From a virus: a stretch of DNA of 11,523 nucleotides. Below the pieces are notes generated by a model. The model saw only the letters and a list, made by a program, of their open reading frames with translations, ran no database searches and was not told where the DNA came from. Below are positions 1 to 11,523 of the stretch, in pieces; within the stretch, counting starts at the first letter, position 1; each line of letters starts with the position of its first letter. The position numbers and the translations under genes were made by a program. Location: UHGV virus genome UHGV-0861165; one strand, given 5' to 3'.

Positions 1-2748
1 ATTGAGCATGGACCAGATGCTGTCCTGACTTTACCCGAGGGTAATGCCAGCGCAGGACTCCCGTCTTCCGTTCGCTACAATGCCGACTCCGACGAATTTG
101 AGGGCTTCTATGAAAATGGTGGATGGTTGCCGCTGGGTGGCGGTGGTATCCGCTGGGAAGTCCTTCCGCATGCCTCTACGGCAACGCTCACTGAAGGGCG
201 AGGCTATCTCATTAATAATACCACAGGGGCATCTACAGTGGTTCTCCCTTCCCCTACGCGTATTGGGGATTCTGTTACTATTTGTGATGCTTATGGGAAA
301 TTTGCCACTTACCCATTGACTGTGTCTCCTTCTGGAAATAATTTGTATGGCTCCACTGAAGACATGGCTATAACAACTGATAACGTATCAGCAACGTTCA
401 CTTGGTCTGGACCTGAACAAGGTTGGGTTATCACATCCGGTGTCGGTCTTGGCCAAGGTCGTGTCTACAGTCGTGAAATCTTTACAAAAATTTTGGCGTC
501 TGAAACAAGTGCTGTCGCTCTCAATACTCCACCAACAATCGTGGACGTGTATGCTGACGGAAAACGTCTTGCGGAATCCAAATATTCACTAGATGGGAAT
601 GTAATCACTTTCAGTCCTTCTTTGCCAGCCAACACAGAACTTCAGGTGATTGAATATACTCCTATTCAATTGGGTAATAGCGGTGGTTCTGGTTCTTCTA
701 CGATTACCTGGGTCTATAATGGGGGTTCAGCGATTGGCGGTGAAACCGAAATCACTTTGGACGTCGTTGTTGATGATGTTCCGGCCATTGATATAAACGG
801 AAGTCGCCAGTATAAAAATCTGGGATTCACATTCGATCCATTAACCAGTAAAATCTATCTTGCACAAGAACTGGAACCAGAGGATGAAGTTGTTGTAATT
901 ATCAATGGAACACCAAACATCTATAATCAAATTGATCATACTTTGCGGGAAGTTGCTCGTGCTACTAACGTTAAAGACAGTGAAGTAATTCTTAGTTCTG
1001 ACACTACTCAGTCCCTTAATGGTAAGAAGATTATTTACTCTGTTAGTGAGCAGAAGGCATATAGTTTACCTACTCTACCGTCCAATGTATTTATTGAATC
1101 TGTTGAAAGTGGGAAATTAACATATAGTCCTGGCTCAATTAAGGTAGATCTACTCCCATTACCTAATGACTCTGCTGTAACTGAGCAAGCAATTCTCAAC
1201 CAGTTGTCTGCAATTGAAGGTGAATCCCTTATTGGAACAGTTACCTATGTAACCCTGCGAGAGTACACAGGCTCAGCTACACGTGTTAAGTGTATCGGTA
1301 GAAGTGTAGAGGGGGATGGTGGTGAGGGGGACTTCTATTTAGTACCTGGTGATTCTACTTCAGTAGATGATGATGGGGTAATTATTGTTGATGGTTCCGG
1401 CCGTCGTTGGAAACGTTCCTATTCTGGCCCAATTTCTGCCTCTTGGTTCGGTGTAAGAGATGGTACTGACGTCACCACTACACTACAAAATGCAGTTAGT
1501 CGGGGTGGTGGACAAATCTTTGTACAGGACGGTCAGTACACACTTACTGCTCCCATCGTTGCAAATTTTACTGGTGCATCTTTCCCAATTATGGGAAGAA
1601 AAAGTAAGCGTTTTGATTTCATTGGTTCATCCATGGCGAACACCACTTTTAATACTAATGGTAATGAAGCGTTTAGTTTTACCGGTACTGATGGTTCTGT
1701 AGCTGGTCAGGGTGTACATAGTGGTGCACGTATTAGTGACTTCAGCGTCTATGGCACAAATAATACAGGCATTGGTGTACGTTTGGTTGGTGCTGCATAC
1801 CTCAAAGTACATGACCTCCAAATTAAACGTACTAATATCGCTATGCGTATTTCTGGTGTACTCTCAAGTGATATAAAACGAATCAATGCTCAATATAACA
1901 ACCATGGTATGTACATCACCAGTGCTTCTAACAGTACAGTCAATGCTATGCGTATTAGTGGGATGTTTGGTGCTAATAGTAAATGGGGAATTGAAGGTGA
2001 AGTAGGTACTAACGTATACATTGAAGATTCTAATTTTGAGGGTAATGGTACAGATGGGGATGAACTGTCTGGTGCTATTTACTTACGAGTTGTAGAACCT
2101 TTGAGCACCATTAACATTAGTGGGTACTTTGAGGCTAACGTTGGGCGAGCAGATATACTGATAGATAACCGAACCAGCTCTCCTTTGGTTGTAAACCTCC
2201 GTGGTTGCGTATTTAATCGTGGTGGTATGCGTGGTGGGTCTAATCTTGGTATTGGTGCAAAGTATAATGTTGAGACACGCTCTACTGGCGGTGGTCCAAT
2301 CATCCTTAATCTTAATGGTTGTGTATTCTTTACACAGACGGGTTTTGGATATGTACCTAGTGCAGATTCTCCATATATACAACCAGCACCATACTTAACT
2401 GTTAATGGGGAAGATACTTGTTACTTTAGTGAATCTACTAGTCGTGGTGAGACTGGGAACCGTGGTATGACATTAGGTATTTCTATGAAAGCTGATGGAA
2501 CCATGGCCAATAAACCACCTTTCTTAACCTCAACTCGTGTTTCTGCTGGTGTATACACCATCACACACAATACTAGATTCGGGACGGATATTGATCATTT
2601 CCAGGCAGTGGCTACGTCTAAGGCCAGTGGTTTTACTGTATCTTATGTGCAGAAGGTTAACTTACAGGCATTACGCATCGTTACATTAAATGCAGCAGGT
2701 TCGCCTGCTGATACTGATTTTGATGTTATAGTCACTTCTCGTCGTTAA
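1..2748 (+). CDS. Tail spike protein, long form, 5'-partial: N-terminal tandem small beta-domains (gp10-like by recollection), internal docking motif, then right-handed parallel beta-helix depolymerase-type domain
   Basis: Frame 1 has no stop from position 1 to TAA at 2746-2748. The ORF-track start at 127 is a TTG inside this open frame, so the gene begins upstream of the window. The translation shows periodic beta-helix-like repeats rich in G/N/S/T (e.g. GIGVRLVGAAYLKVHDLQIKRTNIAMRISG, NVYIEDSNFEGNG). It is paralogous to ORF3 in the docking motif (REVARATNVKDSEVIL...QKAYSLPTLP) and the pre-helix neck motif. Confidence 0.85.
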   Translation: MEHGPDAVLTLPEGNASAGLPSSVRYNADSDEFEGFYENGGWLPLGGGGIRWEVLPHASTATLTEGRGYLINNTTGASTVVLPSPTRIGDSVTICDAYGKFATYPLTVSPSGNNLYGSTEDMAITTDNVSATFTWSGPEQGWVITSGVGLGQGRVYSREIFTKILASETSAVALNTPPTIVDVYADGKRLAESKYSLDGNVITFSPSLPANTELQVIEYTPIQLGNSGGSGSSTITWVYNGGSAIGGETEITLDVVVDDVPAIDINGSRQYKNLGFTFDPLTSKIYLAQELEPEDEVVVIINGTPNIYNQIDHTLREVARATNVKDSEVILSSDTTQSLNGKKIIYSVSEQKAYSLPTLPSNVFIESVESGKLTYSPGSIKVDLLPLPNDSAVTEQAILNQLSAIEGESLIGTVTYVTLREYTGSATRVKCIGRSVEGDGGEGDFYLVPGDSTSVDDDGVIIVDGSGRRWKRSYSGPISASWFGVRDGTDVTTTLQNAVSRGGGQIFVQDGQYTLTAPIVANFTGASFPIMGRKSKRFDFIGSSMANTTFNTNGNEAFSFTGTDGSVAGQGVHSGARISDFSVYGTNNTGIGVRLVGAAYLKVHDLQIKRTNIAMRISGVLSSDIKRINAQYNNHGMYITSASNSTVNAMRISGMFGANSKWGIEGEVGTNVYIEDSNFEGNGTDGDELSGAIYLRVVEPLSTINISGYFEANVGRADILIDNRTSSPLVVNLRGCVFNRGGMRGGSNLGIGAKYNVETRSTGGGPIILNLNGCVFFTQTGFGYVPSADSPYIQPAPYLTVNGEDTCYFSESTSRGETGNRGMTLGISMKADGTMANKPPFLTSTRVSAGVYTITHNTRFGTDIDHFQAVATSKASGFTVSYVQKVNLQALRIVTLNAAGSPADTDFDVIVTSRR

Positions 2749-2775: not shown

Positions 2776-2880
2776 TAGAAAAACAATGAGGTACATATGA
2801 ACGGATTATTCTTACAAGGTGGTAAAGGTTCAACCGGGATCTTAACCAATAAACAAGCAATAGCTCGGCATTTCGGTGTC
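2776..2880 (+). repeat. Junction cassette copy A: CTAGAAAAACAA-GAGGT-ATATGAACG plus conserved 5' coding segment of the short tail spike
   Basis: By eye, near-identical at nucleotide level to 8103-8209 (TAGAAAAACAAtGAGGTacATATGAACGgatTaTTCTtACAAGGTGGTAAAGG... versus TAGAAAAACAAaGAGGTttATATGAACGaaaTgTTCTcACAAGGTGGTAAAGG...). Includes the RBS (GAGG) and the ATG at 2797. Confidence 0.7.
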
Positions 2881-5301
2881 AAAGAAGACGAAGTCGTTTA
2901 TTTCACTGTCGGTATTGATCTCAGTGGATTTAAAGTAATTTATGATGAGTCTACCCAACGGGCTTATTCTCTTCCTTCAGGTATTGTTTCAGGAACGACT
3001 GCGATAAGCCTTAATTCTGCTGGGGTATTAGTCCATTCTGCTGGTAATGTGGATTTAGGTGCACTAGCTGTTACCCGGGAAGAGTATGTAACTTTACCTG
3101 GTTCATTCGAGACGGGTGTAACCGTTAATGCCAAGAATGAGTTAGTTGTCTTTGCGAATGGCAAGTATCGTTGGGATGGGGCATTGCCTAAAGTGGTTGA
3201 TGCAGCCTCATCCCCCGAAACCAGTGGTGGTATTGCTTCAGGTGCTTGGGTAGGTGTGGTTTCTGCTCTCCTAACAACAGCCAGCGGTACTGGGCTTGTA
3301 GGTCACAAAGGTGCTAACTTTAGTGACACCACTGCCTACCTTTACCTATCCTGGCGTAATGGTGATATTACTGCATTCGGGGGTGTGTACGATGACGCCT
3401 CAGCTGGTGATCTAAATAAAGCAGCCTTTGCTACTATGCAGGATACTTTTGGGGGTGTACGTATAAACCTCATGGGTAAAGCAGTTTACCTACCAAACTC
3501 TATGGAGTTAGAGGTAGGGAGTCTGGAAATCTGGGGTGGTGGTAATATTTTCGGTGGTTCTGGATACATGTTCCGTGCTGGTGACAACGGATTCGTTAAC
3601 ATTAAGGAATTTACCCTACAAAGTATTGATGCAAGTGGTAACGACTTCACTCGCCTTGTTGGTGCACCCTCTAATCGTGTTAACCTCATCCAGTATGTTG
3701 AAGCAGCATATTTCAAAACGATTGGAAGAGTCATCGTATTCGCTGGCAATGGTCGCGCCGGTGGAGACTTTAATCCAGTAGAGACAAGTTACGGCTGTAA
3801 GCAGATTAACTTCCATCACTTTTCATGCGAAGAGCCAGGAGACTATCTCGTTTCTGCCCAGAACTATCCGTTTGATACCTTCAGTGTCACTAAGTTTTAT
3901 GTACATAATATGAAGGGTACGCTCATCAATGCTGGAATTGATAACGATCATGTCTATGAGCGTCAGCTAAACCACGCAATGAAAACCCTCATCGTTTCCG
4001 ACTACACCGTCATGAACGAAGATGATTTCTGGGCTGATGGCGTCTTTACCTATACTACGGTAGCTATCGCTGAAGTTGAGCACCTAGTTCACACCAACGG
4101 TCGCCAACATGGTGTTAAAGTCAAAGAGGCTGGTAATGTAGTCTACGACATCTACAATAATGCATTTAGCGTCCAAGAAGAAAATATCTTTATCAGTGAC
4201 TGTTTCAACTGGAACGACGGGATGCTCATGCCTCACAAGATTAAAGGGGCGTGGAGCTATTCGAGTAAGAATAAGCACTGGGTGTACCGTAAGAGTTATG
4301 TGGTGGCAATGAAAGCTATTCACAGTGGTATTTCAGAAGGAAACGCCAAAGGTTCTTTCTTCTATCCCGAAACGGATGACCTGCACACTAGTGCTGCTTC
4401 TTCTGTCACTGATTGGACGCAACGACAAATCACGATCACTGACTGTTTCATTGAACTGATTAAAGTTAATCAGGCTAACCTTTCACGTCCATTGTTCAAT
4501 GTGCGTTTGGATGGCAACACCTTTGTTACACACGATTCTGGTACTACCCATTTGGTTCAGTTCTCTGCCTATCCCCATAACCTCTATCAGCAGATGACGG
4601 TAACAAATAACCGTATCATAGCTCCGGCTCTTACGTTATCTGCATTGGTAGGCTTCTCCGCAGGTTCTCAGGCTGGTGGAGGAGTATTCCAGGGGGTTGT
4701 CGATATTTCGAACAATACCGTTCGGGCAGCAGCGGCGAATTTGCTGGCAGATTGGTCTGGTGGTCAGAATATCGGAACTGGGTCAGTCATCCGTATCGAC
4801 AATAACGATATGGTTACCACAGGCAACTGCCAGATCTGTAACTCTAATCCGTCCTATGTTGACTCTGTATTTGCTAGAAACAACTATTTGCAGGGCACTG
4901 CGACTGTAGGGATGGGTAAGCTGAACGCATCTGCCTACGCATATGAGACTGTGAATGGGTTTAAGGGGAACAGTCCGATTGTTCTGTTCCAGCAGGGAAT
5001 CCCAACAGCGCAGCAGATTAATAGTCGCTCGTATCGCCTGGAGATTTCTGGAACTAATGGTGAGAAAGTAACCCAAGGTTTCACTATCACTGCTGGCGTC
5101 AGCACGACTTCAATACGCTTCGTGAGTTCCGATGGGAACACGTACACGAAGGTAACTGGAACCGATAATGGCACCTTCGAAATGCAATCCACTTCATCGG
5201 ATGGGTTAAATTTAGAGGTCGTGGTTGCATCTGATGGTGTAACAGTCAGAACAGCGTCGTCTGTGATGCAAAGGTTTGAAGCTCGACTGTATGCTCTGTA
5301 A
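2797..5301 (+). CDS. Tail spike protein, short form (834 aa): N-terminal anchor module shared with ORF4, divergent central and C-terminal receptor-binding/enzymatic region
   Basis: ATG at 2797 preceded by GAGG with a 5-nt spacer; uninterrupted 2505-nt ORF. The first ~155 aa (MNGLFLQGGKGSTGILTNKQAIARHFGVKEDEVVYF...KVIYDESTQRAYSLP...) are clearly homologous to the ORF4 N-terminus. The C-terminus is rich in G/T/S/V beta-strand-like sequence typical of tail spike C-terminal domains. Enzymatic fold not assignable by eye. Confidence 0.85.
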   Translation: MNGLFLQGGKGSTGILTNKQAIARHFGVKEDEVVYFTVGIDLSGFKVIYDESTQRAYSLPSGIVSGTTAISLNSAGVLVHSAGNVDLGALAVTREEYVTLPGSFETGVTVNAKNELVVFANGKYRWDGALPKVVDAASSPETSGGIASGAWVGVVSALLTTASGTGLVGHKGANFSDTTAYLYLSWRNGDITAFGGVYDDASAGDLNKAAFATMQDTFGGVRINLMGKAVYLPNSMELEVGSLEIWGGGNIFGGSGYMFRAGDNGFVNIKEFTLQSIDASGNDFTRLVGAPSNRVNLIQYVEAAYFKTIGRVIVFAGNGRAGGDFNPVETSYGCKQINFHHFSCEEPGDYLVSAQNYPFDTFSVTKFYVHNMKGTLINAGIDNDHVYERQLNHAMKTLIVSDYTVMNEDDFWADGVFTYTTVAIAEVEHLVHTNGRQHGVKVKEAGNVVYDIYNNAFSVQEENIFISDCFNWNDGMLMPHKIKGAWSYSSKNKHWVYRKSYVVAMKAIHSGISEGNAKGSFFYPETDDLHTSAASSVTDWTQRQITITDCFIELIKVNQANLSRPLFNVRLDGNTFVTHDSGTTHLVQFSAYPHNLYQQMTVTNNRIIAPALTLSALVGFSAGSQAGGGVFQGVVDISNNTVRAAAANLLADWSGGQNIGTGSVIRIDNNDMVTTGNCQICNSNPSYVDSVFARNNYLQGTATVGMGKLNASAYAYETVNGFKGNSPIVLFQQGIPTAQQINSRSYRLEISGTNGEKVTQGFTITAGVSTTSIRFVSSDGNTYTKVTGTDNGTFEMQSTSSDGLNLEVVVASDGVTVRTASSVMQRFEARLYAL

Positions 5302-5302
5302 G

Positions 5303-5330
5303 AACAACCCCGCTTCGGCGGGTTCTTGTT
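5303..5330 (+). terminator. Terminator-like hairpin with CCCGC-TTCG-GCGGG core (UUCG-type tetraloop) and T-rich 3' flank
   Basis: CCCGC(5309-5313) TTCG GCGGG(5318-5322), flanked by partially complementary AACAA/TTGTT arms, followed by TTCTTGTT. Lies immediately after the ORF2 stop (5299-5301). Confidence 0.45.
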
Positions 5331-5360
5331 ATACCTTTGTTCATAAATTTATTAGTTCAG

Positions 5361-5368: not shown

Positions 5369-5404
5369 CCCCATATTGGCAAATCCTCTATGGGGTATCT
5401 TCAA

Positions 5405-8068
5405 ATGACCAGAAACGTCGAGAGCATCTTTGGAGCGGTCGTAACAGCTCCGCACCAGATTCCATACACTTACACAGCAACGGGCGGAGAGAAGTTTATC
5501 TCCCTCCCTTTCTACCCTGTCACTGGTATAGTCACAATCAACGGTGGTATGCAAGTTCCGTTAGACAACTTTGAAATCGATGGAAATACGTTGAATCTCG
5601 GGTGTGCATTATCCAAAGGTGACGTTGTGTTCTGTCTGTTTGATAAGATTCTGTCTCCAGAAGATTATAAAACTGGGATTCGAATCTATAAGTTTCAGGC
5701 TATAGGAGGTGAAACCGAGTTCACTCCTGATTACACATCCTATGGAGTCCAATCTCTTTATATCGGTGGTGAGTACAAAACACCCGAAATTGAATATTCC
5801 TATGACAGCACGACAGGGAAAGTGACTTTACAAACTGCGCTGACTGCAGGCGTTTGGGTAGTCGCTGAAATGTCTGTTAAACAACCGAATATCAGTCCGT
5901 TGTTTGACCGAAGTATTCAAGAAATCGCCCGTTCAGCTAATGTAAAAGATTCTGAGGTAATTCTTAATACGGATACATCTCAAGTACTCAATAACAAGAA
6001 AGTTATCTTCGATGCAGCTGCTCAGAAAATTTATGGCCTGCCTTCATTACCGACCAATGTCTATATTAGTTCTGTGTCTAATGGTCAGTTAACCTACAGT
6101 CCAGGTAACATTACCGTAGATTTGATGGAAGTTCCTAATTCTGGTGCTAGTCTCAGAGAAGACCTGAGTAAGCCTGATGGTAGCAAGCTCATTGGTTCAT
6201 GCCCCAATATTGCAGTACTGCGAACAATTGAGCCTACCTATGCTGAACAACGCATTTACGTAGAAGCACATACTGAAGGTATGATTGCAACCAATGCAGG
6301 TGATTTAGGTGGCGGGTATTTTGTATATAAACCATCTGTTACATCAGCAGATGACAATGGTATGACTATTGTTACTGCATCCGGCAAGCGTTGGGTACGT
6401 GATTTACGTGGTAGCACCGAAGTTACCCCATCTATGTTTGGTGCGTGGATGGATGCTCCTTATATTGATGGGAGCACTATTCAGGGTACACCTTATCCTA
6501 AAGCACCAAGTATGGGGGCTGCTGACCTGTCTGGTGTGCACAATGATGGGGATGCTTTGCTGGCAACCTACACATATGCTGTAGCTAATGGGTTGAATAT
6601 CAAAATTACTCAACCGATGTACATTGGTGATACACAGATTGATATTAGCAATCAGCGTTGGACTGGTAGATCTCTATCCATTACGGGTCTTGGTCAGAGA
6701 CAAAGTATTATTTATACATCAGGTAAGGGTGGATTCATCTCTACCAGATGGGGACACAATATTACCGTTGGTCGCCTCTCTTTCCGTAATGCTGATTCTG
6801 ATTACGTAGGTAGTCCTCTTGTTATCAGTTCATTCGACTTAAGTAATGGCATCGGTGGTGGTGGTAAAACATTCAATATTCACGATGTGGACTTTTACCA
6901 CTATAAGTTCGCTTTGCCTATGGCTTGCTTTGTCAGTGTTATGACCAATTTGTATGCATATGACTGTACCTATGGTTTTGGTATCAATGGAAGCACTAGT
7001 ACGGATATGTCATCTATTTGGGCACACCATTGTGACATTGGCTTTTTATGGGGAGCTGCCATTAATCGTACTACATACGAGCCAGCCAATAATGAAACAC
7101 CTGTTATGTATGTTGCTACCAGCAACATTGCAGCAGATGGTTGCATTTTACCTCATAAATTTTATGGAGATATTCGTAGCCTTTCCTTCTCTGGCTTTGG
7201 TATTGAAGGGATAAATGGTCCAGTGGCATTAGACTTCTCACAGTTAGCCTCCCCTGCTGCACAAACAACAATCGTATTCAGAGATGTTTCTTGTTGGATT
7301 CAGTCTAAAATGAATACTGGTGTAACTCATTTTATTGAGTTGCCTGCTAATGAGTACCAGGCTGGTAGGATTATTTTTGACAGTGGTTACGTTAACTCTG
7401 ACTATGCTATCAAATTGATGGAGAATACCACTTCTCCAAGTAACCAGTATATTGGGCGTAGTGTTACATTAAATAGTAATTTTGAATTTTTAAAAGTTAG
7501 CGATGGTTCCTACACAATATCTACATATAACCGTGGTAACCTTTACCGGGGCAGGGTATATGGAGAAGATATTGTACAAGGTCGTAACTCGTACACGGGT
7601 ACTACTTTGTCAGCAATCCATTCTAATAGTAATTCCTTCTTCAGAAGTGTTGACCATAAGGAAGCTACTGTACTGGTTCCATGGAACAGGGCTTTAGATA
7701 TATTCCTTTGTGCTGTAGGGGAAGAGACTAAAATTCCGGATGGTTGCTTCGTTGCTGGGCGTGCAGATATCATTCCAGTTAACAAAAATGGTTTGGCTGG
7801 TACTGAATCAGGGGGCAGTATTCTGTTTGGGCTATCCGGTAGCACACAGGAAAATGTAGCCTCTGGTGCAGTCTGGTCTAATATGATTGCTGGTGATAAA
7901 TCTCTTTCCGGGGTAACAGTAACTAAACTGGTACGTGATGGTAAAACATTTGTTAGAATCGCATTGCCTACGGCAAGCCTAACAAATGCAATCGTTCACC
8001 TTTCTGTAACCTACTGTGGTTTTGCACATTACTACGATAAGCGTTGGGAAATAAAACCCTTAAGCTAA
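5405..8068 (+). CDS. Tail spike protein, long form (887 aa from ATG 5405; 892 aa if the in-frame ATG at 5390 is used): N-terminal tandem small beta-domains, docking motif, neck motif, beta-helix depolymerase-type domain
   Basis: Uninterrupted frame to TAA 8066-8068. Start ambiguity: the ATG at 5390 has no SD and sits in the 3' arm of an inverted repeat, whereas the ATG at 5405 has a leader that parallels the ORF5 leader. The protein is paralogous to ORF1 in the docking motif (QEIARSANVKDSEVIL...QKIYGLPSLP) and the neck motif (GGGYFVYKPSVTSADDNGMTIVTASGKRWVRD). Confidence 0.85.
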   Translation: MTRNVESIFGAVVTAPHQIPYTYTATGGEKFISLPFYPVTGIVTINGGMQVPLDNFEIDGNTLNLGCALSKGDVVFCLFDKILSPEDYKTGIRIYKFQAIGGETEFTPDYTSYGVQSLYIGGEYKTPEIEYSYDSTTGKVTLQTALTAGVWVVAEMSVKQPNISPLFDRSIQEIARSANVKDSEVILNTDTSQVLNNKKVIFDAAAQKIYGLPSLPTNVYISSVSNGQLTYSPGNITVDLMEVPNSGASLREDLSKPDGSKLIGSCPNIAVLRTIEPTYAEQRIYVEAHTEGMIATNAGDLGGGYFVYKPSVTSADDNGMTIVTASGKRWVRDLRGSTEVTPSMFGAWMDAPYIDGSTIQGTPYPKAPSMGAADLSGVHNDGDALLATYTYAVANGLNIKITQPMYIGDTQIDISNQRWTGRSLSITGLGQRQSIIYTSGKGGFISTRWGHNITVGRLSFRNADSDYVGSPLVISSFDLSNGIGGGGKTFNIHDVDFYHYKFALPMACFVSVMTNLYAYDCTYGFGINGSTSTDMSSIWAHHCDIGFLWGAAINRTTYEPANNETPVMYVATSNIAADGCILPHKFYGDIRSLSFSGFGIEGINGPVALDFSQLASPAAQTTIVFRDVSCWIQSKMNTGVTHFIELPANEYQAGRIIFDSGYVNSDYAIKLMENTTSPSNQYIGRSVTLNSNFEFLKVSDGSYTISTYNRGNLYRGRVYGEDIVQGRNSYTGTTLSAIHSNSNSFFRSVDHKEATVLVPWNRALDIFLCAVGEETKIPDGCFVAGRADIIPVNKNGLAGTESGGSILFGLSGSTQENVASGAVWSNMIAGDKSLSGVTVTKLVRDGKTFVRIALPTASLTNAIVHLSVTYCGFAHYYDKRWEIKPLS

Positions 8069-8102: not shown

Positions 8103-8209
8103 ACTAGAAAAACAAAGAGGTTTATATGAACGAAATGTTCTCACAAGGTGGTAAAGGCTCCACTGGTATTCTTACCAATAAGCAAGCCATTGCCCGTAAG
8201 TTTGGTGTT
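8103..8209 (+). repeat. Junction cassette copy B (see 2776-2880)
   Basis: Nucleotide-level similarity to copy A spans the leader, RBS, ATG (8126) and the first ~80 nt of coding sequence. Confidence 0.7.
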
Positions 8210-10297
8210 AAGCAATCTGAGGTTGTTTATGCCAAATCAGGACAGTCCTTGTCTGGTTATAAAGTAATCTACGATAAGGTCACTCAGCGCTCCTATGCAC
8301 TGCCTTCTAACCTGCCTGCTGGCGCTACCATCACCAGCCTGACAGACGGCATTCTCGTACACAATACGGGCACCGTAGACCTGGGTGCTCTGGCTGTACT
8401 GCGCGGGGAGTTCGTTACTCTGGTCGAAAACTTTACGTCTGGATTTACGATTCGTGTCAAAAACGAAGTTGTAAGTGATGGGGTAAATTTGTATCGCTGG
8501 GGTGGTAGTTTACCAAAGACCGTTAATTCTGGTGAAACTTTAGAAAGCACTGGGGGTATGAATACGAATGCGTGGATTGGCGTTGTATCGCTTAATAACT
8601 CATTTTTGAGTGTAAATGCTCTAAGGGCGTCAGAAAACTTAAATAAAAATATACCATTGTTTCTTTCAAGTTATTATGAAGGTATTGATGGCGGCGGCGG
8701 GTCTTTCTACGTAGATACCAACGACACTACGTCATCAGATAACAATGGTACAGTATTTGTTAACGCCTCTGGCCAGCGCATAAAACGTATTTCAGATGGT
8801 GTATGTCGTTGGTCAGACTTCGGAATTCTTCCAGGCATGCCGGTAGCGCCTACAAAATCGCAGTGTGAAGCCGTTTGGTCGTGGGGGTTTGCAAATGGGT
8901 GTACTCGTTATGAAACCTTCCAGAAAGGGGAGATGACGTTCACCTTCCCCCTGTTGTTCCAAGTTCCGGCTAACTGGACAGGTGGTGCTGTTAGCTTCAT
9001 TGCAGAAGGGTTGCATAAATTTGCTTATGATTTCAAAAATGGCGCTACAGATGATGTGATTGAGATCCTCCTTAAACTGGAAGATCTGTCAGGTAATACA
9101 CCCATCCATACTGTTTATAATTTTGATAACGTTGGGATGGGACGGTTCCCCGGGAAAAACATCCGATATACCGCACTGCGACACACGAGCGCAAAAAACT
9201 CAATGATCAAGGTTACTGGGAAGAACAACTACGGATATGCCTTGTTCATAGGCGGTAGTGATAACAGCATCGTGTACAATTCAACGTTTTATAACTGCGA
9301 TGGCCAGTTGCTTGTAAATTCTCCAGCAGGCGGTTACGACAGCTTTGGTGATGCAATTTATGTTGGCGCTAAAAATGTGTCTATCCAGAGTCCTGTAATT
9401 GAAACAACACAGGGTGGTAGAGCCGGTATCGTATTTGAAGGGACATGGGTTGAACGTGTTGGTGGTGAGGTAACAAACTGCTTTATTAAGGGATATGACC
9501 GTGGTATTCACATAGAGACTGTAGGTTTCAGGATGGATGCAATTAATATTACTGGAGGCAGGATACAAGATTGCAATACCAGCGTATTGGCATTCAATGG
9601 TGTAACTGATGATATGGGTAGTGATATGTCTGTTATCATCAAGGGGTTAACGTCAAGGCTTGATAGCACAATTTCAGGCCACGCCAATCCGTCTGGTTTT
9701 AGCCTGGGACACCTTATGGTATCTGGAGTTAACACACAAGTAACAACGGAAGGGTGCTCATGGCAGACTCACCAGAACAACATCACCGTTGTGGGTAATG
9801 GGAAATGGGTGAGCAATGGTGACCGCATGTTTGTTAACTCTGGTGGCATCAACCTGCCGTACACTCGTGGGTGCGAGATAAACAATCTGTACGCACCACA
9901 GAACAGAAACGCGTTAAAATCCGCAGGTAATTTAGTCTTTACAAACTCTTATTGGGGAGGGGACATTAACATAACCGGGGGCAATAAAACAATTATTGAT
10001 AACGTCGAGATGTCAAGACAAGGAGGATATGCAAACTGTGGTCGTATCAGTCTGGTTGGCTCCAATAGTGCGATATTGCGTAATATTATATTCCAGTATC
10101 CAGACTCATGGGCAATAGATAATACTCAAACTTGGCAGGTCCCCGTGTGTCCTATCATAGAAAACATCCACGTAAATAGCGTAGAAACAGGAACTGCAAC
10201 ATTACAAAGAAACGCAGAAAGTGGGGCTAATAATCGGTACAGAAGGTCTATTCCTTCATATATATCAAACGGAAGTACATGGACGATAATTAGTTAA
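8126..10297 (+). CDS. Tail spike protein, short form (723 aa): shared N-terminal anchor module, neck motif, right-handed beta-helix (pectate-lyase-like) depolymerase-type domain
   Basis: ATG at 8126 preceded by GAGG (8117-8120); uninterrupted 2172-nt ORF. The N-terminal ~150 aa are homologous to ORF2. Typical beta-helix repeats are visible (GGSDNSIVYNSTFYNCDGQLLVNS, AIYVGAKNVSIQSPVIETTQGGRAGIVFEG, TNCFIKGYDRGIHIET). Confidence 0.88.
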   Translation: MNEMFSQGGKGSTGILTNKQAIARKFGVKQSEVVYAKSGQSLSGYKVIYDKVTQRSYALPSNLPAGATITSLTDGILVHNTGTVDLGALAVLRGEFVTLVENFTSGFTIRVKNEVVSDGVNLYRWGGSLPKTVNSGETLESTGGMNTNAWIGVVSLNNSFLSVNALRASENLNKNIPLFLSSYYEGIDGGGGSFYVDTNDTTSSDNNGTVFVNASGQRIKRISDGVCRWSDFGILPGMPVAPTKSQCEAVWSWGFANGCTRYETFQKGEMTFTFPLLFQVPANWTGGAVSFIAEGLHKFAYDFKNGATDDVIEILLKLEDLSGNTPIHTVYNFDNVGMGRFPGKNIRYTALRHTSAKNSMIKVTGKNNYGYALFIGGSDNSIVYNSTFYNCDGQLLVNSPAGGYDSFGDAIYVGAKNVSIQSPVIETTQGGRAGIVFEGTWVERVGGEVTNCFIKGYDRGIHIETVGFRMDAINITGGRIQDCNTSVLAFNGVTDDMGSDMSVIIKGLTSRLDSTISGHANPSGFSLGHLMVSGVNTQVTTEGCSWQTHQNNITVVGNGKWVSNGDRMFVNSGGINLPYTRGCEINNLYAPQNRNALKSAGNLVFTNSYWGGDINITGGNKTIIDNVEMSRQGGYANCGRISLVGSNSAILRNIIFQYPDSWAIDNTQTWQVPVCPIIENIHVNSVETGTATLQRNAESGANNRYRRSIPSYISNGSTWTIIS

Positions 10298-10302
10298 CAA
10301 AG

Positions 10303-10330
10303 CCCCTCTTCGGAGGGGTTTCTTCTTTCT
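10303..10330 (+). terminator. Rho-independent-type terminator: CCCCTC-TTCG-GAGGGG hairpin followed by TTTCTTCTTTCT
   Basis: Perfect 6-bp GC stem with a TTCG tetraloop and a pyrimidine/T-rich tail, 5 nt after the ORF4 stop. The stem sequence is nearly the same as the hairpin at 2755-2775. Confidence 0.65.
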
Positions 10331-10339
10331 ATTCCTCGG

Positions 10340-10367
10340 TTGGTTGTATACTAAATATCTCTATAAT
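10340..10367 (+). promoter_or_regulatory. Candidate promoter upstream of ORF5: TTGGTT (weak -35) - 16 nt - TATAAT (consensus -10); overlaps the ACTAAATA motif at 10350-10357
   Basis: A perfect TATAAT hexamer at 10362-10367 lies ~24 nt upstream of ATG 10392, with RBS GGAG at 10381-10384. The -35 is poor (3/6). The alternative reading is a phage late-type promoter centred on ACTAAATA. Confidence 0.3.
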
Positions 10368-10391
10368 GGCACCTATCGATGGAGCATCAAA

Positions 10392-11523
10392 ATGCAAGAA
10401 ATGAACCTCAACCGCCGCCCATATTGGGATGACTGGAATCCAGAGAAGCGTTTTTCGCGCATCCTATTCCGTCCGGCACCTATCAAAGTTCAGACGCGTG
10501 AACTGAACCAGATGCAGACCATCTTCCAGGATCAACTGGAGAAACTTGGCAACCATCTGTTCAAAGACGGTTCAATGGTTATCCCCGGCGGCCTGACGAT
10601 CACCAACACTGCTGTGTCCATGAAGTTCACTCTGGCTGGTGGTAGTGAGTTCACTGATCTGGAAGGTATCTCCGAACTCTATGTTCTGGGCAAGGACAAC
10701 AATGCGAAAGCACGCGTCCTGTCCTTGGAACGTTACCCAGCTGAGCCGGATACAATGTATGCCATCTTAGAGATGACTGAGAGTGGTAGTTCAGACGGTT
10801 TCGAAGCTGGCGACAATCTATACTTCAACACCTATGACGTGAACGATAACTTCATCCGTGTCGGCTATGGCGTGGCCGATACTGTTGGCGGTTCGATTGT
10901 CGCTCGCATGACAAAGGGTGTTTATTTCGTTCGTGGTATGTTCCTGGATGTTGAACCAACCACTTTGATCGTAGACAACGCATCGAACTCTACATCTCAC
11001 CGCATTGGCTTCAAAGTTACAGAAACAATCGTGACCGAAGCAGAAGATGAAAGTCTGTTCTCCAATGCTCAGGGTACTCCGAACTCTAAAGCCCCTGGTG
11101 CGCATCGCCTGCGCGTCGACCTCGTGTTGTCTCGCTACGGTTATGATGAAGAAGTGGCCGACTTCGTTGAACTGGCGAAGGTGAAAGACGGTCGCATTCA
11201 GTCCATGGTCACCCAGTCAACGTACAACATCCTCGAAGACGCCATGGCTCAGCGTACCTATGAGACCAATGGTGACTACAACGTCTCTACTCACCAGATC
11301 GACCTGCGTGAACATCTGAAAGAGAACAACAACGGCGGCGTTTACACTCCGGCTGAAGGTGGTGATGAAAGCAAATTCGTGGCGGTTATGAAGCCAGGCA
11401 TTTCCTACGTTCGTGGTCGTCGTATCGAAAACCTCGGCGAAGAGCTGGTCATAATTGACAAAGCCCGTGACACTGATATCCTGAACAACAACCCTGTGGC
11501 TGTTTCGACTGGCAACTATCTGG
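10392..11523 (+). CDS. Conserved phage structural protein of unknown function (possibly baseplate- or tail-associated), 3'-partial
   Basis: ATG at 10392 with a good RBS (GGAG, 7-nt spacer); the frame is open to the window end, so it is absent from the ORF track. It looks visibly GC-richer, with more host-like codon choice, than the spike genes, and it lacks beta-helix repeats and the spike N-terminal modules. The function is inferred only from its position next to the spike cluster. Confidence 0.75.
   Translation, partial: MQEMNLNRRPYWDDWNPEKRFSRILFRPAPIKVQTRELNQMQTIFQDQLEKLGNHLFKDGSMVIPGGLTITNTAVSMKFTLAGGSEFTDLEGISELYVLGKDNNAKARVLSLERYPAEPDTMYAILEMTESGSSDGFEAGDNLYFNTYDVNDNFIRVGYGVADTVGGSIVARMTKGVYFVRGMFLDVEPTTLIVDNASNSTSHRIGFKVTETIVTEAEDESLFSNAQGTPNSKAPGAHRLRVDLVLSRYGYDEEVADFVELAKVKDGRIQSMVTQSTYNILEDAMAQRTYETNGDYNVSTHQIDLREHLKENNNGGVYTPAEGGDESKFVAVMKPGISYVRGRRIENLGEELVIIDKARDTDILNNNPVAVSTGNYL

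What the first reader, a model, noticed from the sequence alone, without database searches (positions are those of the whole stretch)
3265..5301. ORF2 receptor-binding region looks architecturally distinct from the other three spikes
After the shared anchor, ORF2 lacks the neck motif and shows less regular helix periodicity. It contains Cys/His/Asp-rich stretches (e.g. YGCKQINFHHFSCEEPGDY, ISDCFNWNDGMLMPH, ITDCFIELIKVNQ) before a G/T/S-rich C-terminal domain. It may carry a different catalytic domain, or be a non-enzymatic binder. It is the best candidate in the window for an uncharacterised receptor-binding specificity.
Basis: inference. Interest (0 to 1): 0.5.

Follow-up and report, generated by a model that had tools for sequence, protein, structure and literature searches.

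The report
Phage tailspike with rare sugar-binding module
ORF2 is an ordinary-looking phage tailspike (a beta-helix spike bolted onto a standard anchor) whose host-recognition module belongs to a small, enzymatically uncharacterised family whose only studied member, from the temperate coliphage Kapi1, targets the bacterial O-antigen.

Summary
The window is the four-tailspike cluster of an Ackermannviridae (Kuttervirus-like) phage, in the order TSP4-, TSP3-, TSP2- and TSP1-type. ORF2 (2797-5301) sits in the TSP3 position.

Residues 1-156 are the standard TD1/TD2 head. It also lacks their shared GGGxF...DDxG...GxRWxR motif.

The module is 41-44% identical over its full length to about 15 prophage tailspikes, including Kapi1's. 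Kapi1's receptor is the O-antigen, and its particles alter LPS. Four of five prophage relatives examined lie beside O-antigen-modifying genes (gtrABC or an O-acetyltransferase).

A wider superfamily of about 80 clusters conserves E426, D451, K441, K483 and three tyrosines.

The Cys/His/Asp richness is not real: ORF2 has fewer cysteines than ORF3 or ORF4.

Best reading: a horizontally acquired, O-antigen-specific depolymerase of unknown specificity and chemistry. It is a new member of a known kind, of modest interest.

The parts
2788..2791 (+). GAGG ribosome-binding site, 5 nt before the ORF2 ATG
   Evidence: Read directly from the sequence.
2797..5301 (+). ORF2, an 834-aa tailspike in the TSP3 position of the four-spike cluster
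   Evidence: ORF list and translation. An identical protein, P0001, lies on an independent assembly contig with the same neighbours.
2797..3264 (+). N-terminal head (TD1/TD2, aa 1-156), the adaptor that docks the spike into the branched complex
   Evidence: phmmer hits to CBA120 TSP1 (4oj5, E 1e-69) and TSP3 (5w6f, E 1.9e-65) over aa 1-166. PF18668 at aa 91-154. 78% DNA identity to Kuttervirus 'tail spike protein 3' over nt 52-464 of the gene.
2992..3012 (+). GTTAISL (aa 66-72), a variant of the GTTAVSL motif proposed as a recombination site in Kuttervirus TD1 domains
   Evidence: Sequence. Motif described in PMC8432352.
3265..3342 (+). Module junction and degenerate neck (aa 157-182). Family homology starts at L159/G164.
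   Evidence: Alignment A1. pLDDT is below 50 here. GC3 jumps from 0.31 to 0.45 at this boundary.
3343..4998 (+). Right-handed parallel beta-helix body (aa ~183-734), the presumed receptor-binding and catalytic domain
3544..4296 (+). Core shared with a wider superfamily (aa ~250-500). It carries P327, G333, N371, N383, Y419, E426, G439, K441, Y450, D451, Y453 and K483.
   Evidence: About 80 distant clusters match profile positions ~95-345 with E 1e-16 to 1e-4. Column conservation across them.
4000..4038 (+). Conserved loop DYTVMNEDDFWADG (aa 402-415 region) with invariant D402, N407, D409, W412 and D414
   Evidence: Invariant columns. The assignment to a loop after strand aa 395-406 comes from the model's secondary structure. 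Its role is inferred.
4072..4149 (+). E426 to D451, the only two carboxylates conserved at 90% or more across the superfamily. They are 25 residues apart and are candidate catalytic residues.
   Evidence: A catalytic role is inferred and not shown.
4198..4245 (+). Conserved loop DCFNWNDGMLMPHKIK (aa 468-483) with invariant D468, W472, N473, D474, P479, K481 and K483. It repeats the D.F.W.DG pattern of the first loop.
4357..4386 (+). FFYPETDDLH (aa 521-530), a conserved motif inside the helical insertion (aa ~499-542)
   Evidence: Invariant F521, F522, E525, D528 and H530. The insertion has lower confidence in the model.
4999..5298 (+). G/S/T-rich C-terminal beta-sandwich domain (aa ~735-834)
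   Evidence: All-beta in the model. 52% G+S+T at aa 751-800. It also occurs as a separate 105-aa fragment hit, P0019, and matches weakly a fivefold repeat in P0089.
5309..5332 (+). Terminator-like hairpin CCCGCTTCGGCGGG followed by a T-rich tail, just after the ORF2 stop
   Evidence: This is a consensus match only.

Best explanation
ORF2 is the TSP3-position tailspike of an Ackermannviridae phage. It is built from two modules. The head (aa 1-156, TD1/TD2) docks the trimer onto the XD3 domain of the neighbouring TSP2-type spike (ORF3), within the complex anchored by the TSP4-type spike (ORF1). The body (aa ~183-834) is a right-handed beta-helix with a C-terminal beta-sandwich. It was acquired by recombination at the head/body junction from the pool of enterobacterial temperate-phage tailspikes. 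The body most likely binds a specific LPS O-antigen along the beta-helix groove and cleaves it. This lets the virion work its way down to the outer membrane and gives the phage one of its four host specificities. The most likely chemistry is glycoside hydrolysis using conserved carboxylates (E426 and D451, possibly with D409), with conserved Lys, Tyr and Trp residues holding the sugar chain. What is shown: the two-module build, the fold, family membership and the residue conservation. What is inferred: O-antigen as target, by homology and gene context. Also inferred are the enzymatic activity and its type, and which residues are catalytic. The particular O-serotype is unknown.
Against: No enzymatic assay exists for any family member. 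The Kapi1 LPS change was seen with whole phage, not purified spike. The conserved lysines fit a lyase as well as a hydrolase. ORF2 is the family outlier: 41-44% identity against 52-91% among the others. It differs at 48 positions that are invariant in all other members, including H546, D548, D551, W428 and W529, so loss or change of activity cannot be excluded. The model comes from only 14 sequences and a monomer, and confidence is low at aa 157-187 and 528-538. Ackermannviridae spikes can also target capsules.
Confidence: 0.6

Rival explanations
1. The beta-helix body is a polysaccharide lyase (beta-elimination on a uronic-acid-containing O- or K-antigen), not a hydrolase.
Confidence: 0.15
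2. The body is a non-enzymatic binder: an adhesin-type spike that only holds the receptor.
Against: All 135 family-invariant positions are retained, including the residues conserved across the superfamily. Kapi1 particles alter LPS. The characterised CBA120 spikes TSP2, TSP3 and TSP4 cleave their O-antigens.
Confidence: 0.1
3. The target is a capsular or exopolysaccharide (K-antigen) rather than the LPS O-antigen.
For: Ackermannviridae spikes recognise LPS, capsules or exopolysaccharides (PMC11414711). ORF2 is only 41-44% identical to its relatives, so its specificity has certainly diverged.
Against: The one studied relative uses the O-antigen. Four of five prophage relatives examined are paired with O-antigen-modifying cassettes, the classic seroconversion arrangement.
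Confidence: 0.1
4. The spike is a deacetylase/esterase that removes O-acetyl groups rather than cutting the chain, as the reader suggested as one assay.
For: Some tailspikes are esterases. Two relatives are paired with O-acetyltransferases.
Against: No SGNH or other esterase domain was detected by Pfam or NCBIfam. The model is beta-helix and beta-sandwich only.
Confidence: 0.03

Closest known systems
Tailspike of Escherichia phage vB_EcoP_Kapi1 (Kapi1_067, QOC59583.1; Lederbergvirus)
   Same: The receptor-binding body is homologous over its full length: 42.3% identity over 99% of ORF2 aa 157-834, E 7e-151. The junction position and the invariant motifs are the same. This is the only member with biology attached: its receptor is the O-antigen and the LPS ladder is altered by the phage.
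   Different: Kapi1 carries a P22-type head-binding adaptor on a temperate podovirus, whereas ORF2 carries a Kuttervirus TD1/TD2 head on a lytic myovirus with four spikes. At 42% identity, and with 48 family-invariant positions changed in ORF2, the serotype specificity is almost certainly different. The enzymology of Kapi1's spike is itself unknown.
CBA120 TSP3 (ORF212, PDB 5w6f/6nw9) and TSP1 (ORF210, PDB 4oj5)
Det7 TSP3 / P22 tailspike pair (a Kuttervirus spike whose body matches a Lederbergvirus spike)
   Same: The evolutionary event is the same: a TSP3 body shared between an Ackermannviridae phage and a P22-like temperate phage, cited in PMC8432352.
   Different: The body family is different. 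The P22 type is a structurally and enzymatically defined endorhamnosidase, whereas the ORF2/Kapi1 type has no structure or assay. Foldseek similarity to Sf6 and HK620 spikes is weak (TM 0.17-0.22).
Pectin-lyase-like right-handed beta-helix carbohydrate enzymes (e.g. GVE2 ORF18 7chu, PL6 lyases, GH28, GH110, AlgE epimerases)
   Different: Identity is 6-13%, and no Pfam beta-helix model (PF12708, PF13229) reaches even E=5. The hits span hydrolases, lyases, epimerases and adhesins, so they do not assign a chemistry.

Membership tests
Ackermannviridae TSP1/TSP3-type tailspike | N-terminal TD1/TD2 (D1-D2) head homologous to CBA120 TSP1/TSP3 | tested here: met
   4oj5 at E 1e-69 and 5w6f at E 1.9e-65 over aa 1-166. 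PF18668 at E 9e-21.
Ackermannviridae TSP1/TSP3-type tailspike | Encoded in a four-gene tsp cluster with XD-domain partners (TSP4 and TSP2 types) | tested here: met
   ORF1 matches TSP4-N (7rej) and ORF3 matches the TSP2 N-terminus (6w4q). The cluster is syntenic with Kuttervirus records.
Ackermannviridae TSP1/TSP3-type tailspike | Physical assembly onto TSP2 XD3 within the TSP4-TSP2 complex | not testable with these tools
   Inferred from head homology and from the literature.
Right-handed beta-helix tailspike depolymerase | Parallel beta-helix body | tested here: met
Right-handed beta-helix tailspike depolymerase | Homotrimer with active sites in or between subunits | not tested
   Only a monomer was modelled.
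Right-handed beta-helix tailspike depolymerase | Identifiable catalytic acidic (or basic) residues in the groove | tested here: inconclusive
   E426, D451 and D409, plus K441 and K483, are conserved from the family to the superfamily. Their 3D position could not be checked and no characterised homologue exists.
Right-handed beta-helix tailspike depolymerase | Cleaves the host polysaccharide | not testable with these tools
   The only evidence is indirect: Kapi1 virions alter purified LPS.
Kapi1-type tailspike body family (unnamed; no Pfam or PHROG model) | Full-length alignment of the body from the junction to the C-terminus | tested here: met
   99-100% coverage, 41-44% identity, E 1e-154 to 1e-170. 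All 135 invariant columns are kept.
Kapi1-type tailspike body family (unnamed; no Pfam or PHROG model) | O-antigen as receptor | not testable with these tools
   Shown for Kapi1. Supported by gene context for four prophage members. Unknown for ORF2.
Pfam beta-helix families (Pect-lyase_RHGA_epim PF12708, Beta_helix PF13229) | Score above the gathering threshold | tested here: not met
   No Pfam hit in aa 157-834 at E up to 0.1, nor in nine family bodies at E up to 5.
P22 / Sf6 / HK620 tailspike families | Sequence homology of the body and the defined catalytic triad or pair | tested here: not met
   No PDB sequence hit with single-sequence or profile searches. Foldseek E 3e-4 to 2e-3 with TM 0.17-0.22.
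SGNH esterase (deacetylase) tailspikes | SGNH hydrolase domain | tested here: not met
   No such domain in Pfam or NCBIfam. The model has only a beta-helix and a beta-sandwich.

The most novel reading that the evidence does not exclude
The ORF2/Kapi1 body, together with the roughly 80 distant clusters that share the motif NP..(F/Y)G ... N..N(F/M) ... N ... (N/D)DD.(W/F) ... Y......E ... G.K ... YD.Y ... K.K, is a new carbohydrate-active enzyme family. It would be a new GH or PL family in CAZy terms. E426 and D451 (or a Lys/Tyr pair) would be the catalytic residues, used by tailspikes of both Gram-negative and Gram-positive phages and so far invisible to Pfam, PHROGs and the PDB.
Probability: 0.35. 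Interest if true: 0.45.

Novelty: new member of a known kind. Interest (0 to 1): 0.3.

Why it matters
In Ackermannviridae phages, host range is set by which receptor-binding bodies sit on the four conserved spike positions. These phages are being engineered for detection and therapy by swapping those bodies.

ORF2 adds a TSP3 subtype that is not present in any deposited Ackermannviridae genome. Its body comes from a family with no structure and no biochemistry. It is a second natural example, after Det7 TSP3 and P22, of a body shared between a lytic four-spike myovirus and P22-like temperate phages.

Solving or assaying this body would also explain the unexplained Kapi1 tailspike. It would annotate a wider, currently nameless set of phage spikes. 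Beyond that, it is a routine case of modular tailspike exchange.

Tried and rejected
- **Sequence libraries on the body alone.** Pfam, PHROGs and NCBIfam returned nothing.
- **PDB by sequence.** I searched with the single protein, a nine-member family profile and a 15-member distant-family profile. Only chance hits came back, at E of 0.26 or worse.
- **AFDB Foldseek.** The library was not available.
- **Source names for homologues.** They read only 'hypothetical' or 'phage head-binding domain-containing protein'.
- **Closer relatives that would give a host or serotype.** The phage records hold only Kapi1. IMG/VR holds five loci, all at 41-43% identity. GTDB species representatives hold none. 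Complete E. coli genomes hold only three Kapi1-type prophages, with about 200 nt of weak DNA similarity.
- **Remote homology between ORF2 and the other three bodies in the window.** None was found by hhalign.
- **A Cys/His metal site.** Rejected. There are only 6 Cys, and apart from C678 and C681 they are widely spaced. Some are not conserved, and overall Cys content is lower than in ORF3 and ORF4.
- **Mapping conserved residues on the model.** Not possible, because coordinates are not exposed.
- **Later literature on the Kapi1 spike.** No enzymology was found.
Full report
**What the window is.** The window holds four long same-strand ORFs: ORF1 at 1/127-2748 (cut by the left edge), ORF2 at 2797-5301, ORF3 at 5390-8068 and ORF4 at 8126-10297. 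The flanks and N-terminal parts match Ackermannviridae genomes at 82-97% identity. These include Enterobacter phage fGh-Ecl02, Escherichia phage YX22, Salmonella phage SJ2 and Det7. No record covers more than 42% of the window.

ORF1 matches the CBA120 TSP4 anchor and assembly region (7rej, E 1e-160; PDB identity confirmed). ORF3 matches the TSP2 N-terminus (6w4q, E 2e-142). ORF2 and ORF4 match the heads of TSP1 and TSP3. The cluster therefore reads TSP4-, TSP3-, TSP2- and TSP1-type, and ORF2 sits in the TSP3 position. The DNA hits under its 5' end are annotated 'tail spike protein 3'. An identical ORF2 protein with the same neighbours lies on an independent assembly contig.

**Checking the observation.** DNA similarity to Kuttervirus spikes covers only nt 52-464 of the gene. 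PDB head matches end at aa 160-173. PF18668 ends at aa 154. Homology to the body family starts at L159/G164.

The three quoted peptides are present at aa 332-350, 466-480 and 547-559.

The clearest 'neck'-like motif shared by the other three spikes is G[GE]Gx[FY]...D[DN]xG...GxR[WI]xR, at the start of their bodies. It occurs in ORF1 (399-430), ORF3 (307-337) and ORF4 (190-221) and is absent from ORF2. ORF2 begins instead with WRNGDITAFGGVYDDASAGDLNKAAF. The short helical linker after GAW is also degenerate in ORF2.

The C-terminus is G/S/T-rich, at 52% over aa 751-800.

The compositional claim fails. ORF2 has 6 Cys (0.7%), fewer than ORF3 (1.2%) or ORF4 (1.4%). Its Asp content is average. Only His is mildly raised, at 2.2%.

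**What the body is.** Residues 157-834 have no match in Pfam, PHROGs or NCBIfam. They have no PDB sequence match with single-sequence or profile searches. Profile comparison with the bodies of ORF1, ORF3 and ORF4 finds nothing.

An AlphaFold2 model built on a 14-sequence alignment has mean pLDDT 77.8 and pTM 0.78. Its parts are:
- a capping helix (aa ~202-218);
- a long run of short beta-strands typical of a right-handed parallel beta-helix (aa ~183-734), with one partly helical, lower-confidence insertion at aa ~499-542;
- an all-beta C-terminal domain (aa ~735-834).

- the GVE2 ORF18 pectin-lyase-like protein;
- Acinetobacter and Klebsiella phage depolymerases;
- PL6 lyases, GH110, GH28 and AlgE epimerases;
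- CBA120 TSP2, TSP3 and TSP4.

All are at 6-13% identity. Foldseek against the PDB and BFVD agrees and is weak, with TM of 0.4 or less. ORF2 therefore has the standard spike architecture. What is distinct is the sequence family, not the fold.

**Relatives.** Among 50,697 phage records, only the Kapi1 tailspike matches the whole body: 42.3% identity, 99% coverage, E 7e-151. It is annotated hypothetical, with a P22 head-binding domain.

In the 5.8-billion-protein collection there are 13 further clusters at 41-44% identity and 99-100% coverage. They come from Enterobacter hormaechei, E. coli and metagenomes. IMG/VR adds five loci at 41-43%. GTDB species representatives add none. Only 3 of 5,426 complete E. 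coli genomes carry a Kapi1-type gene.

The same body is fused at the same junction to four kinds of adaptor:
- the Kuttervirus TD1/TD2 head (ORF2);
- other PF18668 heads;
- the P22 head-binding domain PF09008;
- a fourth N-terminus with no Pfam match.

ORF2 is the family outlier. It is 41-44% identical to every member, while the others are 52-91% identical to each other. Third-position GC is 0.454 in the body, against 0.308 in ORF2's own head and 0.28-0.41 in the other bodies. This fits import from a higher-GC donor pool such as enterobacterial prophages.

**Target.** Pick et al. (PMC8787464) showed that the Kapi1 receptor is the LPS O-antigen. Spontaneous resistant mutants carry a wzy frameshift, and a waaL mutant is almost resistant. 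Incubating purified LPS with Kapi1 changes the ladder. The authors state that the spike has no similarity to other viral proteins beyond the head-binding domain, and that its activity cannot be predicted. Later papers citing Kapi1 add no spike enzymology.

I examined the gene context of five prophage homologues. Two lie tail-to-tail with gtrA-gtrB-gtrC. Two lie beside an Acyl_transf_3+SGNH O-acetyltransferase. The fifth, the Kapi1 type, lies next to the integrase. Pairing an O-antigen-specific spike with an O-antigen-modifying cassette is the classic seroconversion arrangement of P22- and Sf6-like phages (established knowledge). It supports O-antigen as the family's target. For ORF2 itself this is inference.

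**Is it an enzyme, and of what kind?** ORF2 keeps all 135 positions that are invariant in the family. These include a dense polar and aromatic cluster between aa 402 and 530: D402, N407, D409, W412, D414, Y419, E426, H432, Q437, K441, N447, Y450, D451, Y453, N454, E461, D468, W472, N473, D474, K481, K483, Y488, and on to E525, D528 and H530.

An exhaustive profile search of 1.84 billion representatives found 90 proteins. About 80 of them are distant hits (E 1e-16 to 1e-4) that match only profile positions ~95-345, which is ORF2 aa ~250-500. Some carry PF18668, PF09008 or clostridial ChW repeats, so they are spikes or cell-surface proteins from diverse phages.

Across these distant members the following ORF2 positions are conserved at about 90% or more: P327, G333, N371, N383, Y419, E426, G439, K441, Y450, D451, Y453 and K483 (numbering is shifted by +1). 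E426 and D451 are the only carboxylates conserved that widely. They lie 25 residues apart, roughly one beta-helix rung.

Two loops, aa 407-415 (NEDDFWADG) and aa 468-475 (DCFNWNDG), repeat the same D.F.W.DG pattern after equivalent strands. They probably stack as a ridge beside the groove. That is inference.

This pattern fits the acid pair of O-antigen spike hydrolases. The conserved lysines keep a lyase mechanism open. A profile of the distant family also finds nothing in the PDB, so no characterised template exists.

ORF2 differs at 48 positions that are invariant in the other 13 members. These cluster at aa 541-551 (G541T, N542Q, F544Q, H546T, D548T, N549D, D551F), with W428E, W529L and aa 710-714 besides. 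I read these as changed sugar subsites, meaning a new specificity, but loss of activity cannot be excluded.

**How it most likely works.** The head docks the trimer onto XD3 of the TSP2-type spike, within the TSP4-anchored branched complex (literature). The beta-helix binds and probably cleaves one particular O-antigen, giving the phage one of four host specificities. Confidence is about 0.6 for the whole statement. It is higher, about 0.75, for 'an enzymatically active, O-polysaccharide-specific spike', and lower for 'hydrolase'.

**Comparison with the other three spikes.** No body in the window has a solved sequence relative.
- The ORF3 body is 97.6% identical to those of fGh-Ecl02 and YX22.
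- The ORF4 body is 86% identical to SJ2 and 83% to the podovirus Tyrion.
- The ORF1 body has only 23-31% identical phage relatives (Aeromonas phage 4_4512, Sf101).

ORF2 is therefore one of two rare bodies, not uniquely the best candidate.

**Novelty and verdict.** Swapping of bodies among Ackermannviridae spikes and with P22-like phages is documented, for example Det7 TSP3 and P22. ORF2 is a new TSP3 subtype whose body belongs to a small family that has no enzymology or structure but a plausible receptor class. It is a new member of a known kind, with interest about 0.3.

The most novel reading still open is that the wider motif-bearing superfamily is a new carbohydrate-active enzyme family (probability about 0.35).

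Noticed in passing
window 1-2748 (ORF1), especially 1267-2745: ORF1 is cut by the left edge of the window: frame 1 is open from base 1, and about 30 codons are missing compared with fGh-Ecl02. It is the TSP4-type spike. Its receptor-binding part has only 23-31% identical relatives among phage records (Aeromonas phage 4_4512; Shigella phages Sf101 and Sf11). Its specificity is therefore at least as uncharacterised as that of ORF2.
   Followed up: partly
window 6305-8065 (ORF3 body): The TSP2-type body is 97.6% identical to spikes of Enterobacter phage fGh-Ecl02 and of Escherichia phage YX22 (host APEC IMT5155). It is 52-58% identical to spikes of small sipho- and podoviruses (TH16, Kagunavirus, Opt-79). 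This gives a possible hint to one host of this phage.
   Followed up: no
window 8606-10294 (ORF4 body): The TSP1-type body is 86% identical to Salmonella phage SJ2, 83% to the podovirus Enterobacter phage Tyrion and 66% to Citrobacter phage CrRp3. This is another cross-family exchange of a receptor-binding module.
   Followed up: no
window 3265-5298 versus 2797-3264: Third-codon-position GC jumps from 0.308 in the ORF2 head to 0.454 in the ORF2 body, the highest in the cluster (a hand two-proportion test gives z of about 3.3). This is consistent with import of the body from a higher-GC donor.
   Followed up: partly
window ~2755-2775 and 5309-5332: GC-rich hairpins followed by T-rich tails lie directly after the stops of ORF1 (CCCCTCC..GGAGGGG TTTCT) and ORF2 (CCCGCTTCGGCGGG TTCTTGTT). 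The spike genes may be separately terminated or attenuated units. The region holds 7 terminator-like sites, against 2.4 expected.
   Followed up: no
L005 10453-13144; L008 8458-11230; L007 8719-10572; L011 8405-10240: In enterobacterial prophages, the homologous spike gene is followed tail-to-tail by an O-antigen-modifying cassette. This is gtrABC in two cases and an Acyl_transf_3+SGNH acyltransferase in two. Kapi1 itself has no such recognisable gene although it seroconverts its host (PMC8787464).
   Followed up: partly
proteins P0021-P0103, matching ORF2 aa ~250-500 (window 3544-4296): About 80 clusters at the 50%-identity level share a beta-helix core motif (NP..FG, N..NF, NDDDWW, Y......E, EG.K, YDAY, K.K). 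They have no Pfam, PHROG or PDB counterpart. Some carry P22 head-binding or PF18668 adaptors, and one carries clostridial ChW repeats. This is an unnamed spike superfamily.
   Followed up: partly
window 10298-11523: Downstream of ORF4 the GC rises to about 0.50. By synteny with fGh-Ecl02 and YX22, this is the intergenic region and start of the large VrlC-like 'virulence-associated' protein gene. A 95-aa minus-strand ORF (10818-11105) overlaps it and is probably spurious.
   Followed up: no
protein P0089 (1093 aa), repeats at aa 509-989: A weak fivefold repeat in an unrelated protein matches the ORF2 C-terminal beta-sandwich (profile positions 587-648). It has faint Fn3/Ig-like Pfam hits, which suggests that the C-terminal domain is an Ig/Fn3-like module.
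   Followed up: no
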